Shown one piece after another: positions 21,744 through 24,865 of a stretch of 36,680 bases of DNA. Numbering within the stretch: position 1 is the first letter of the stretch; the number at the start of each line of letters is the position of its first letter. Position numbers and translations under genes: made by a program. The stretch is from a virus. Lineage: Duplodnaviria > Caudoviricetes. The stretch spans positions 1 to 36,680 of the IMG/VR virus record IMGVR_UViG_3300043171_000189; one strand, written 5' to 3'. Below the pieces are notes generated by a model. It was not told where the DNA came from. It did not search any database and worked only from the letters and a program-made list of their open reading frames with translations.

Positions 21744-21951
21744 ATTCATAGTTGAAGTTGACAGTGTTGGAAATTTGATAGACAGTCATGGGGCACACGT
21801 TTGTATGATTACGTTACCTCATAACCTAAAACCACTTGAAGCAGAAGTTGCATCGGTTGAACCTGTTTCACTCAACAAAATAATCAAGCTGAAAGAAGCA
21901 GGGTTTGATTCCGATGAAATCCTCAAAATGAATGCAGAGGGGATGATATAA
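21736..21951 (+). CDS. Hypothetical protein (71 aa)
   Basis: AGGTGG RBS; coupled to neighbouring genes. Confidence 0.65.
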   Translation: MSKFIVEVDSVGNLIDSHGAHVCMITLPHNLKPLEAEVASVEPVSLNKIIKLKEAGFDSDEILKMNAEGMI

Positions 21952-22439
21952 TGAGTAGAATATATAAGTGTACCATGTGTGGAAATACGATGGTTGACCC
22001 ATTCCCAGGGCAGCAAATGGGTTGCAGATGTGGTGGTACACATCTGTATGAGAGTGTTGTTGAAGAGGTGGTGTTAAAGCAAGGGCCTTGTTTTGAACAA
22101 TTTCCGGTAACACCAATTGACGAAGATGAGATAGCTCGTAATGATTTGAAATGGGATAATGGTAAATTGAAGTTCAGTTTAATCTTACCCGAATTTGAAA
22201 AGCTAATGGCTGAAATTCTTACCAAGGGGGAGATTAATCATCCAAGGGTAGCCGGTGAACCATCATGGCAACAGGTAGAACCTGAAGCGTATATCAATGC
22301 AATGAAGAGGCATATTAGCTCATTTCAGCTAGGTGAATCAACCGATAGTGATATGAATACACATCACATGGGGCATGTGGCAATTAATGCAATGTTTCTA
22401 TACTGGCTCGACACCGGAGGAAAATCAAATGACAGTTAA
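21951..22439 (+). CDS. dATP/dGTP diphosphohydrolase-like protein (DUF5664) with N-terminal Zn ribbon
   Basis: K-x-D-x-GK-x3-SLI, L-x2-G, W, Y-x2-AM-x-RH...GE-x2-D...H-x2-H-x3-NA-x-FL; CTMC...CRC at the N-terminus. Confidence 0.75.
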   Translation: MSRIYKCTMCGNTMVDPFPGQQMGCRCGGTHLYESVVEEVVLKQGPCFEQFPVTPIDEDEIARNDLKWDNGKLKFSLILPEFEKLMAEILTKGEINHPRVAGEPSWQQVEPEAYINAMKRHISSFQLGESTDSDMNTHHMGHVAINAMFLYWLDTGGKSNDS

Positions 22440-23258: not shown

Positions 23259-23573
23259 CTATACAAGTTGGTCATCAAATCGTCTTAACTCCACACCCTC
23301 TTCTTTAGCTAAGAGTCTTTCTTCTTCTTTCCTGGAAATTATTGTTGTGACAAGTTTGACCTGCTTCATCTCGGCTCTCATCTTCTTTACTGAGAAATAC
23401 AACAGGATACAGGAAACGATGATACCCACTATTGTACCGAACATTCCTATTACAGAAGGTAGCCAAGAATTATAGGTACTAATCCCTGTCACTACCGTTC
23501 CTCCCGAAGCAATCACAGCAGGTATCTTTTGTTCTGCCACATCTAGAGCATTCTCTAGCAATTCTTTCTTCAA
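23259..23573 (-). CDS. Putative holin
   Basis: TTG start with AAGGAG RBS; one or two hydrophobic segments and a highly charged C-terminal tail; last gene of the lysis cassette. Confidence 0.6.
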   Translation of the reverse strand: MKKELLENALDVAEQKIPAVIASGGTVVTGISTYNSWLPSVIGMFGTIVGIIVSCILLYFSVKKMRAEMKQVKLVTTIISRKEEERLLAKEEGVELRRFDDQLV

Positions 23574-24013
23574 CTTGTAGTCTCCTTCTGTAAACGTCTA
23601 TGAAGTAAAGAGCTTTTAAGACGAGAAAAAGAAAAGATATTATTATTGCCACCTCTTGCACAATGCCTCCTCAATATTACATAAATTGATATCGAGTATA
23701 GTAGAACAAAAGCGTTATTGTAACTATACGGCAACATGTAATTATACCAGATCACCCATCCATAAAAGTTAACTAATATTGAGCAAAAAGACAAACTTAT
23801 AAGTGCGGTAACCATTTTATTTGGCTTTGCACTCATCGATACGGCTAAAATAAAGGCAAAATCAAGGGTAGCACCGGATAAATAATACATCCATCCACTA
23901 AAATTAATAGCCATAATATCGTGAGATATGATCAGCATTGCGAACAAAATCGCAACAATATCTTTAGAAATTATGGCAGATATGCAAATCAAAAGAATTA
24001 ATATTGATATCAT
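23570..24013 (-). CDS. Multi-pass (about 4-5 TM) membrane protein in the lysis cassette
   Basis: Successive hydrophobic segments, aromatic loops (GWMYY, YGWVIWYNY-x2-PYSYN) and a basic tail; coupled to both neighbours. Confidence 0.75.
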   Translation of the reverse strand: MISILILLICISAIISKDIVAILFAMLIISHDIMAINFSGWMYYLSGATLDFAFILAVSMSAKPNKMVTALISLSFCSILVNFYGWVIWYNYMLPYSYNNAFVLLYSISIYVILRRHCARGGNNNIFSFSRLKSSLLHRRLQKETTS

Positions 24014-24099
24014 TTTTTGGTTGTTGGTTTCCCTTTACCGCCTTTAGTTGAACCACCTTTCTTCTCAGGAGTACGTGTTCTACCTTTTCCACCTGCCAT
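24010..24099 (-). CDS. 29-aa Lys/Gly-rich peptide MAGGKGRTRTPEKKGGSTKGGKGKPTTKK
   Basis: Not in the ORF track; AAGAGGG RBS, ATG 24099, and TGA overlapping the next ATG (ATGA); fills the gap after the endolysin. Confidence 0.75.
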   Translation of the reverse strand: MAGGKGRTRTPEKKGGSTKGGKGKPTTKK

Positions 24100-24119
24100 G
24101 ATATTACCCTCTTATAGTT

Positions 24120-24464
24120 TTACCAACGAGCTTTACGATGCCTTGTGTCTATATGAACAAAATCGTTATATAAACCTATACCATACTTGTTGGGATATTT
24201 CTCATTCAAATATTTATAAAGTTCTTGAGGTAACACGTTGTTAGTGTGACAATCTGCAGCACGACCTATCAAATGCTGTGAGTCTTCTGATCCACCTTCT
24301 GACTCGTTGTGTTCAGCACATCGACACCCTGAGCTAATATAGATTGGGCCATTAAACTCCCTGGCATCTTCGAGCACATCAAGCAGTTCAGCATCTACTG
24401 TGTCAAAACCACAACCACAGAGACAATCGAACTCCGATCTTTTGAAGTATTTACTTTTCAGCAT
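24120..24464 (-). CDS. Endolysin, peptidase M15 family
   Basis: YF-x3-EF-x-C-x-CGCG, SG-x-RC-x2-HN, SQH-x2-G-x-AAD and GIGLY-x2-FVHID-x-R...ARW. Confidence 0.9.
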   Translation of the reverse strand: MLKSKYFKRSEFDCLCGCGFDTVDAELLDVLEDAREFNGPIYISSGCRCAEHNESEGGSEDSQHLIGRAADCHTNNVLPQELYKYLNEKYPNKYGIGLYNDFVHIDTRHRKARW

Positions 24465-24466
24465 AA

Positions 24467-24865
24467 TTAAATCCTAAACATTCCATTTTTTCTGGCTTTA
24501 CCACCACCACCAAGAAATGTTGCGTATTTCCACCCTTTGCATCTAAAATAATTATACTGTTCTTTTGCCATAACGTCACATAAAACATTGGAGCACTGCC
24601 AATTAGTTAATGGTGTTCCGTCATCCCATTTTCCTCTATCGCAAAGCACATCATGAAACCACCATGCATCACTATCGATGTCCGGGGCACATGTAGCACC
24701 ATCAGAGCGATACGGACCGGTAACTGTCACATACTTGTCATATCGCTCTGAGTAATATTGCACCTTGTTTGTAAACCCACCACAACCATCATGCCCACCA
24801 ATAGCCATATATTTGTATGGACTATCTTCAGATCGAAAGAGTGGAAGGTGCAATATTCTTTTCAT
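24467..24865 (-). CDS. DUF1353-like protein
   Basis: SDGAT...HD-x-LC motif and terminal GG; adjacent to the endolysin. Confidence 0.65.
   Translation of the reverse strand: MKRILHLPLFRSEDSPYKYMAIGGHDGCGGFTNKVQYYSERYDKYVTVTGPYRSDGATCAPDIDSDAWWFHDVLCDRGKWDDGTPLTNWQCSNVLCDVMAKEQYNYFRCKGWKYATFLGGGGKARKNGMFRI

What the first reader, a model, noticed from the sequence alone, without database searches (positions are those of the whole stretch)
23259..24464. Cationic micropeptide plus multi-pass membrane protein inside a spanin-less lysis cassette
Seen: endolysin, then an unannotated 29-aa peptide MAGGKGRTRTPEKKGGSTKGGKGKPTTKK (8 Lys, 2 Arg, 1 Glu, 8 Gly, no large hydrophobic residue after Met) with its own RBS, then by ATGA overlap a 147-aa membrane protein of about 4-5 TM segments, then by overlap a holin-like gene. 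No lipobox spanin is visible. The peptide is not amphipathic like phiKT gp28 disruptin. Inference: a two-gene peptide/membrane-partner module, either a lysis-timing or signalling pair, or a new outer-membrane disruption device. I know no described system with this layout.
Basis: partly seen in the sequence, partly recalled or inferred. Interest (0 to 1): 0.75.

Follow-up and report, generated by a model that had tools for sequence, protein, structure and literature searches.

The report
Phage peptide-receptor switch beside holin
Between its wall-cutting enzyme and a likely holin, this phage carries a four-gene unit shared by many unrelated phages (a tiny peptide with a fixed seven-residue core, a predicted five-helix membrane protein, a hidden overlapping one-helix gene and the likely holin), which would let a peptide spilled by bursting cells tell neighbouring infected cells when to burst, although this has not been tested.

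Summary
The 29-codon ORF belongs to a family of 19-50 aa peptides with the core GG[RNK]G[KR]xR. It lies directly upstream of the 5-helix protein in 30 of 37 independent lineages (controls 0/37, 0/30), is often repeated, and varies freely at synonymous sites. In one phage it has moved to the opposite strand, so it acts as a product. A hidden single-helix gene lies in the +1 frame of the membrane gene's tail (33 of 33 lineages, 0 of 33 in +2; window 23479-23661). A class II holin-like gene follows (30 of 30). The outer-membrane reading fails: relatives carry ordinary spanins. The membrane protein's conserved residues face the predicted periplasmic side, while the peptide has no export signal. 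Best reading (0.45): a lysis-released peptide is sensed by neighbouring infected cells and shifts holin timing. A same-cell timer is the main rival (0.25). No binding or function is shown. No paper describing the unit was found. This scan noted like peptide/5-helix/holin layouts on other DNA before (e1-10014263, e1-10030877); whether they are the same family was not checked.

The parts
24120..24464 (-). Endolysin, Peptidase_M15_3, 114 aa (context; exchangeable among relatives)
   Evidence: Pfam E 2e-23; phrog_894 E 1e-36
24107..24113 (-). Ribosome-binding site of the peptide gene (AAGAGGG)
   Evidence: sequence
24010..24099 (-). Peptide gene, 29 aa, member of the GG[RNK]G[KR]xR family
   Evidence: 30 of 37 lineages; synonymous variation; reverse test 15 of 15
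24073..24093 (-). Conserved core GGKGRTR (codons 3-9)
24028..24042 (-). Second, partial copy of the core (GGKGK, codons 20-24)
   Evidence: repeats are common in relatives
23570..24013 (-). Predicted 5-helix inner-membrane protein, 147 aa (phrog_15451); candidate peptide receptor
   Evidence: 744 clusters at 50% identity with E<=0.001; model pLDDT 90.8; conservation; loop charges
23666..23672 (-). Ribosome-binding site (GAGGAGG) of the hidden gene, inside the membrane gene
   Evidence: sequence
23479..23661 (-). Hidden overlapping gene, 60 aa, GTG start, one predicted membrane helix and a basic tail; +1 frame of the membrane gene's tail, running into the holin-like gene
   Evidence: 33 of 33 lineages in +1, 0 of 33 in +2; 20 of 33 under a strict RBS rule
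23259..23573 (-). Class II holin-like protein, 104 aa, TTG start (phrog_13707): small-residue first segment, hydrophobic second helix, basic charged tail
   Evidence: directly downstream in 30 of 30 lineages
24467..24865 (-). DUF1353-like gene just upstream of the endolysin (context, not part of the conserved unit)
   Evidence: 9 of 88 aligned sequences hit PF07087; invariant H71-D72

Best explanation
This conserved four-gene phage unit likely works as a peptide-controlled lysis switch, in which the peptide, likely spilled when an infected cell bursts, would bind the predicted outward-facing pocket of the five-helix protein in neighbouring infected cells and so would shift the timing of the likely holin through the hidden one-helix protein. 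Shown: the four genes, their order and coupling, the peptide core, its action as a product (moved gene in L019), co-occurrence with spanins. Predicted: five helices, N-out/C-in topology, conserved residues on the periplasmic side. Inferred: translation of peptide and hidden gene, binding, release by lysis, passage through the outer membrane, holin identity of the last gene, and the direction of the effect (a delay, as in lysis inhibition, is my guess).
For: Peptide core directly upstream in 30 of 37 lineages, 26 of 30 among lineages not used to define the motif; controls 0/37 and 0/30. All four Gly and all six Arg codons are used, and the core ends 5-122 nt before the next start; 1-3 copies per peptide with unrelated flanks. 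All 15 GGRGKQR matches in RBS-led short ORFs have the membrane family nearby, 1 of 89 other matches does. In L019 the peptide sits on the other strand at the end of the tail fibre-endolysin operon while membrane gene and holin-like gene follow the DNA polymerase. Loops 1-2 and 3-4 carry almost no K/R (0.15, 0.09 per sequence) and are acidic, the other loops are basic; the best-kept residues (G40, Y43, N82, G85, W89, Y92, P95, Y98; also H31, D51, Y106) lie in or towards these loops or in mid-membrane. Most peptides have no hydrophobic stretch (median 8% large hydrophobic residues). Last gene: nearest named Atlas clusters are class II holins (0.88, ten of ten in one clan); in KpV52, PEi21 and L020 an endolysin with a hydrophobic N-terminus and spanins lie beside the unit, with no other holin identified within 2.5-3 kb. 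A PHROG endolysin is among the scanned neighbours in 17 of 37 lineages. A one-helix protein that activates a two-helix lysis protein is reported in mycobacteriophage D29 (10.64898/2026.08.27.747656, abstract).
Against: Two peptides (L115, L131) start with a hydrophobic anchor followed by lysines, which would hold the core in the cytoplasm. CP-T1 and six loci of one Jedunavirus-related group keep the membrane gene without an upstream peptide, and KpV52's peptide is degenerate. The core is nearly the same across very distant receptors, unlike a kin-specific signal. The last gene is below every Pfam holin cut-off (PF04971 E 0.054 for 1 of 23 members) and the Atlas score is under 0.9. Several phages have another holin-like gene beside it (phrog_1356 in L018 and AeroV_348; phrog_3427 in L015, L019, L066, L067). 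No endolysin is annotated within 2.5 kb in phiPLPE, 4_L372X, VP16C or CKB-S1. How a 20-50 aa cationic peptide reaches the periplasm is unexplained.
Confidence: 0.45

Rival explanations
1. Same-cell lysis timer: the peptide builds up late and acts on the five-helix protein inside the cell that made it (from the cytoplasm, or through the first holin lesions), releasing or holding the holin pair.
For: No export signal; membrane-anchored versions in L115 and L131 would face the cytoplasm; in L019 the peptide is in the late operon and the membrane genes in the replication operon, which fits a clock; some cytoplasm-side positions are kept too (Q16, R17 column, G123).
Against: The strongest conservation is on the predicted outer side; a plain timer does not need one fixed core across receptors that are mostly 20-45% identical.
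Confidence: 0.25
2. The unit is a membrane sensor-effector for another job (superinfection exclusion, shut-down of membrane potential, counter-defence), and its place near lysis genes reflects late expression only.
For: Other holin-like genes co-occur; the unit sits away from any annotated endolysin in four sequenced phages; holin evidence for the last gene is weak.
Against: Endolysins of several unrelated families are neighbours in 17 of 37 lineages; class II holin-like anatomy.
Confidence: 0.17
3. Outer-membrane disruption device that replaces spanins.
For: No spanin in this window; peptides are cationic, median net charge +8.
Against: Two-component spanins in relatives that carry the unit; no amphipathic hydrophobic face, which defines phiKT gp28 (10.1101/515445); an exact sequence core rather than bulk charge is conserved.
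Confidence: 0.07
4. Leader peptide that controls translation of the membrane gene in cis (ribosome stalling or coupling).
For: Short ORF overlapping the next start; the core ends in a basic-x-basic triplet.
Against: Core-to-start distance 5-122 nt and several copies per ORF; gene moved to the opposite strand in L019.
Confidence: 0.03

Closest known systems
Lysis inhibition by antiholins: T4 T/RI/RIII, ICP1 TeaA/ArrA (PMC7182436, passages), BSPM4 ORF52 (PMC11657625, abstract and section 25), N4 gp63/gp62 (10.1101/2025.11.12.688109, abstract and Discussion)
   Same: Small membrane proteins beside a holin that are thought to adjust lysis time to phage density; N4 also has two holin-type genes with a SAR endolysin and spanins.
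   Different: In the parts I read the cue is superinfection or unknown; none has a dedicated peptide with a conserved core or a five-helix partner. No ICP1, T4, N4 or BSPM4 record was among the 70 tblastn hits tallied.
Arbitrium (AimP/AimR of Bacillus phages; recalled, seen only in search listings)
   Same: Phage-made short peptide gene next to its proposed receptor, used to read infection density.
   Different: AimP is exported, processed and re-imported, AimR is a cytoplasmic TPR transcription factor, the output is lysogeny. Here there is no export signal, the partner is a membrane protein, the hosts of the named relatives are Gram-negative, no integrase was found in the window, and the likely output is a holin.
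Caulobacter HmrB-HmrC (PMC11481889, passages) and the like-looking phiCbK pair D865_gp130/gp129
   Same: HmrC is a predicted five-helix membrane protein thought to sense a signal, next to a small gene. A 166-aa phiCbK protein matches the model by fold (TM 0.61, E 0.11); the only 166-aa multi-helix ORF in bases 1-215000 of phiCbK follows an 86-aa ORF ending in a GG-x-x-K-P tail.
   Different: HmrB is 108 aa and proposed to be a phosphotransferase; the output is a kinase, not a holin. No sequence link to the phiCbK protein (hhalign probability 0.1). HmrC itself could not be fetched. That the fold hit is gp129 is assumed from its length.
Mycobacteriophage 1-helix/2-helix lysis regulators LysA2b/LysA2a, LysF1b/LysF1a (10.64898/2026.08.27.747656, abstract)
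   Same: A one-helix protein paired with a two-helix lysis protein, like the hidden gene and the holin-like gene here.
   Different: Actinobacterial hosts, no peptide or five-helix partner in the abstract; homology not tested.
phiKT gp28 disruptin (10.1101/515445, passages)
   Same: Small cationic peptide without export signal in a spanin-less genome.
   Different: gp28 is a 56-aa predicted amphipathic helix that binds membranes and has almost no homologues; this peptide is Gly/Lys/Pro-rich, has a fixed core and a fixed membrane partner, and occurs with spanins.

Membership tests
Disruptin (phiKT gp28 type) | Small cationic peptide near lysis genes | tested here: met
   29 aa, net +9; family median +8
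Disruptin (phiKT gp28 type) | Amphipathic helix with a hydrophobic face | tested here: not met
   No large hydrophobic residue after Met; median 8% in 45 peptides
Disruptin (phiKT gp28 type) | Stands in for spanins | tested here: not met
   Spanins in relatives carrying the unit
Disruptin (phiKT gp28 type) | Complements a spanin-null lysogen | not testable with these tools
   bench test
Class II holin / pinholin (gene 23259-23573) | Two N-terminal membrane segments and a basic, charged C-tail | tested here: met
   Alignment of 23 members; the first segment is rich in G/A/S/T and only weakly hydrophobic (calls only the second)
Class II holin / pinholin (gene 23259-23573) | Profile match above a holin family cut-off | tested here: not met
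   PF04971 13.9 bits against cut-off 26; phrog_4237 holin E 6e-4 here and 1e-6 in L015; Atlas 0.88 is a lead only
Class II holin / pinholin (gene 23259-23573) | Timed membrane permeabilisation | not testable with these tools
   bench test
Arbitrium | Peptide precursor with an export signal | tested here: not met
   No hydrophobic stretch in the window peptide; only 2 of 45 peptides have an N-terminal one. Family definition recalled.
Arbitrium | Cytoplasmic TPR receptor controlling lysogeny | tested here: not met
   Partner is a five-helix membrane protein; no integrase or repressor among 44 window proteins scanned
HmrB-HmrC | Five consecutive membrane helices with short loops | tested here: met
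   against the description in PMC11481889
HmrB-HmrC | Sequence homology to HmrC | tested here: inconclusive
   HmrC not at hand; only chance-level partial hits in two samples of 401 proteobacterial genomes each, which overlap a little; phiCbK look-alike unlinked by profile
HmrB-HmrC | Adjacent hybrid histidine kinase and a 108-aa helical-hairpin partner | tested here: not met
   No kinase among 126 neighbours or 44 window proteins; upstream ORFs are 19-50 aa
T4/ICP1-type antiholin systems | Homology to RI, RIII or ArrA | tested here: inconclusive
   No named PHROG or Pfam antiholin hit for the membrane or hidden gene; no direct pairwise test
T4/ICP1-type antiholin systems | Lysis delay at high phage density | not testable with these tools
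   bench test
Leader (attenuator) peptide | Acts in cis at a fixed distance from the controlled start | tested here: not met
   5-122 nt spread; moved gene in L019

The most novel reading that the evidence does not exclude
Lytic phages of Gram-negative bacteria run a cell-to-cell peptide signal: every burst releases a GG-R/N/K-G-K-x-R peptide that a phage-made periplasm-facing receptor in nearby infected cells reads and passes straight to a one-helix/two-helix holin pair, with no transcription step. Because the core is shared across distant phages, unrelated phages would hear each other's lysis.
Probability: 0.4. Interest if true: 0.93.

Novelty: categorically new. Interest (0 to 1): 0.8.

Why it matters
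Lysis inhibition is known in a few phages, and the cue is superinfection or unknown. Phage peptide signalling is known (recalled) from temperate phages of Bacillus. A ligand-like peptide, a receptor-like membrane protein and a holin pair in one small unit would give a defined, synthesisable cue for lysis timing in lytic phages of Gram-negative hosts. Cultured carriers exist (phiPLPE, PEi21, Jedunavirus, Vibrio and Aeromonas phages), so it can be tested at once; some are therapy candidates, where burst timing matters. Even if the signalling reading fails, the work defines an unannotated peptide family, a large membrane family (744 clusters) and an overlapping gene absent from all nine annotated GenBank tables viewed, and points to the probable holin of Jedunavirus-like phages.

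Tried and rejected
Direct searches with the window protein found no relatives; relatives came from tblastn on phage records and profiles. Pfam gave the membrane family no consistent match (best MASE8 in 4 of 150); no solved-structure sequence match; fold searches gave only generic helical bundles (Foldseek no E<=0.001, VIA best Z 9.7), which neither supports nor excludes a known fold. An intramembrane protease (AgrB-, Rce1- or exosortase-like) was considered: single weak Pfam hits only and H31 is lost in the Jedunavirus group that still has peptides; not excluded, not favoured. A DNA or RNA motif was rejected by codon use. The TM-motif scan of species genomes gave 38 matches, none a family member, and two samples of 401 genomes gave only chance-level hits: not found in those searched. 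The one GGxGKxR match in CP-T1 lies inside its head protease gene. A tree of 65 receptors (quick method, careful search unfinished) shows motif variants clustered, as kin would; it is no evidence of co-evolution. The complex prediction of receptor and peptide did not run because the queue was full, so there is no result on binding. Promoter and terminator scan: no excess over shuffles. Paper searches found no description of the unit; 'GGRGKQR' occurs in no paper of the library. Subscription journals are mostly missing and no supplements were read (bioRxiv ones are closed), so a description could exist there.

Full report
Context. The window is a 93% complete virus record of a tailed phage with portal, capsid, tail, polymerase, helicase and primase genes and no integrase among 44 proteins scanned. 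The finding lies at the end of the late (- strand) gene block, facing the replication genes.

Observation. Endolysin: Peptidase_M15_3. Membrane protein: phrog_15451; last gene: phrog_13707, weakly holin phrog_4237. A lipobox scan found five candidates, none a plausible gene, so no spanin is seen in the record.

Relatives. tblastn on phage records gave 70 hits for the membrane protein and 78 for the last gene, side by side in Jedunavirus, PEi21, CP-T1, Vibrio and Erwinia phages; phiPLPE and Aeromonas phages have the same order. A profile found 744 clusters at 50% identity with E<=0.001; the 150 best, which were listed, are stand-alone proteins of about 125-170 aa apart from a few fragments. To get unbiased neighbourhoods I scanned three collections with a DNA pattern taken from the membrane protein only (the metagenome scan stopped at 119 of about 180 stretches). 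Of 211 sequences, 94 had a hit at E<=1e-10; 23 were dropped for short upstream flank or missing N-terminus; the other 71 form 37 clusters at 60% identity. None of the 38 species-genome matches was a family member, and two samples of 401 proteobacterial genomes gave only chance-level hits, so the family is seen here only in phage and metagenome contigs.

The peptide. In 30 of 37 clusters (first member scored) a short ORF ending at the membrane gene holds GG.G[KRQ].[RK]; controls were 0 of 37 (opposite strand) and 0 of 30 (1 kb further upstream). The motif was defined on the window and eight GenBank loci; among the 30 clusters not used for that, 26 have it. The seven misses: CP-T1 (none), phiPLPE (copies split over two frames at an A run; cluster mate L021 is intact), KpV52 (degenerate; two cluster mates intact, six without peptide), L015, L023 and L067 (variant cores), L019 (moved). 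Peptides are 19-50 aa, median net charge +8, with 1-3 copies of the core at any position. All Gly and Arg codons are used and the core ends 5-122 nt before the next start, so selection is on the peptide. In L019 the peptide ends the tail fibre-endolysin operon on one strand while the membrane and holin-like genes follow the polymerase on the other: the peptide acts as a product. In reverse, of 104 distinct GGRGKQR matches in viral contigs, all 15 in RBS-led short ORFs have the membrane family nearby and 1 of the 89 others does; 13 of the 15 were already known from the first scan, and 40 of the 120 loci had short flanks.

The membrane protein. The model has five helices (pLDDT 90.8) and a weak tail. 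Loops 0-1, 2-3 and the tail are basic; loops 1-2 and 3-4 are acidic and almost free of K/R, which predicts N-out, C-in. The best-kept residues among 150 members (G40 92%, Y43 98%, D51 88%, N82 98%, G85 99%, W89 86%, Y92 87%, P95 84%, Y98 100%, Y106 94%, H31 74%) lie in the outer half or mid-membrane. That suits a pocket for a cationic ligand arriving from the periplasm (inference). No Pfam family, solved relative or telling fold was found; viral models match only unnamed phage proteins.

A hidden fourth gene. The membrane gene's tail carries a second ORF in the +1 frame with a start codon, one hydrophobic helix and a basic tail (consensus about MWE..QWIAG.L.F..I..H, then Y/HER.R), running into the last gene. 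It is present in 33 of 33 clusters with a complete 3' end (4 dropped) against 0 of 33 in +2; +2 has a stop in 31 of 33, +1 in none; +1 is better conserved than the host frame there (21.4 against 15.5 shuffled; 15.4 against 13.8). A stricter rule with an RBS passes 20 of 33. In the window it is 23479-23661, GTG start, GAGGAGG four bases upstream. It has no PHROG family (best E 0.008 to a holin for 1 of 9) and is absent from the nine annotated tables viewed.

The last gene. It follows directly in 30 of 30 clusters with enough flank (profile built partly from these loci) and all 26 submitted copies hit phrog_13707. Its anatomy is that of class II holins (comparison with the phage 21 pinholin is recalled); the Atlas lists only class II holin clusters (0.88, a lead); Pfam cut-offs are not met. 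PHROG endolysins of several families are among the scanned neighbours in 17 of 37 clusters (126 neighbour ORFs scanned, nearly all from the 143 picked, many flanks short). Against: other holin-like genes co-occur, and four sequenced phages have no annotated endolysin nearby.

Spanins. KpV52, PEi21, AeroV_348 and L020 have Rz-like genes beside the unit (lipoboxes in KpV52 and PEi21), and PMC6139136 lists phiPLPE, JD001 and MSW-3 with two-component spanins (table passages). The unit is therefore not a spanin substitute. How this phage crosses the outer membrane is open; the DUF1353-like gene before the endolysin is one lead.

Mechanism. The parts read as ligand, receptor, regulator and effector. 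The peptide has no export signal, yet the receptor's conserved face is predicted to be outside, so the simplest meeting is after lysis, in a neighbouring infected cell. I put this at 0.45, a same-cell timer at 0.25, a non-lysis role at 0.17, outer-membrane disruption at 0.07 and a leader peptide at 0.03. The membrane-anchored peptides (L115, L131), peptide loss in two lineages and the near-universal core are not explained by the best reading. Binding, translation and direction of effect are untested.

Comparison. It would work like lysis inhibition (T4, ICP1, BSPM4, N4) in output and like arbitrium (recalled) in logic, but fails the membership tests for arbitrium and disruptin and shows no homology to the antiholins. 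The one-helix/two-helix pair recalls D29 LysA2b/LysA2a (abstract). An earlier scan note pointed to Caulobacter HmrBC; the paper describes a five-helix HmrC, and phiCbK has a like pair with a GG-x-x-K tail, linked only by a weak fold match. Two earlier notes of this scan describe proline-rich peptide/5-helix/holin cassettes on other DNA; sequence look-ups found no look-alike and the core word was in no note, so these may be sister families. Nine paper searches found no description of this unit.

Verdict. Real, conserved, larger than reported, not a spanin substitute; likely a peptide-controlled lysis switch. Interest 0.8.

Noticed in passing
window 24467-24865 (-): DUF1353-like gene directly before the endolysin, invariant H71-D72; model pLDDT 90.8; a fungal phospholipase A2 is among tied weak fold hits (Z 4.5, rmsd 3.2, 68 aligned). 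A lead for outer-membrane passage in this spanin-less genome.
   Followed up: partly
L019 1641-5422: Unit split over two facing operons: peptide at the end of the late operon, membrane, hidden and holin-like genes behind the DNA polymerase.
   Followed up: partly
L115 422-562 (-), L131 491-625 (+): Peptides with an N-terminal hydrophobic anchor and a C-terminal GGHGK core; the two receptors group together on the quick tree.
   Followed up: no
L014, L017, L026, L031, L045, L064, L088 peptide C-termini: A second shared motif, about (Q)AAVPVK at the very end, in several lineages; possibly a degradation tag or second binding site.
   Followed up: no
L009 415-1641 (CP-T1 head maturation protease): CP-T1 lacks the peptide gene but has DMGGRGKVR inside its head protease/scaffold; PEi21, Erwinia and phiPLPE peptides have D just before AGG. 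Could hint at release of the core by the prohead protease, or be chance.
   Followed up: no
L004 2251-2365 (phiPLPE): The peptide's two core copies lie in different frames across a run of seven A; the record annotates other ORFs here and a short membrane gene. Close relative L021 has one intact frame.
   Followed up: partly
L346 13564-14335 (phiCbK D865_gp130/gp129): 86-aa ORF ending in a GG-x-x-K-P, Pro-rich tail followed by a 166-aa multi-helix membrane gene, far from the lysis genes; HmrB/HmrC-like layout.
   Followed up: partly
L001, L002, L015, L016, L019, L031, L045, L066, L067, L118: gene just before the unit: A phrog_1544, phrog_3427 or look-alike membrane gene often sits between endolysin and peptide in loci where no spanin was seen among the neighbours; whether it is a holin or the outer-membrane step is open.
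   Followed up: no
P0034: A database protein reads as the membrane protein running into the hidden gene's frame; assembly error or natural fusion.
   Followed up: no
window 21951-22439 (+): dATP/dGTP diphosphohydrolase domain (PF18909) in a genome where no base-modification synthase was noticed among the proteins scanned.
   Followed up: no
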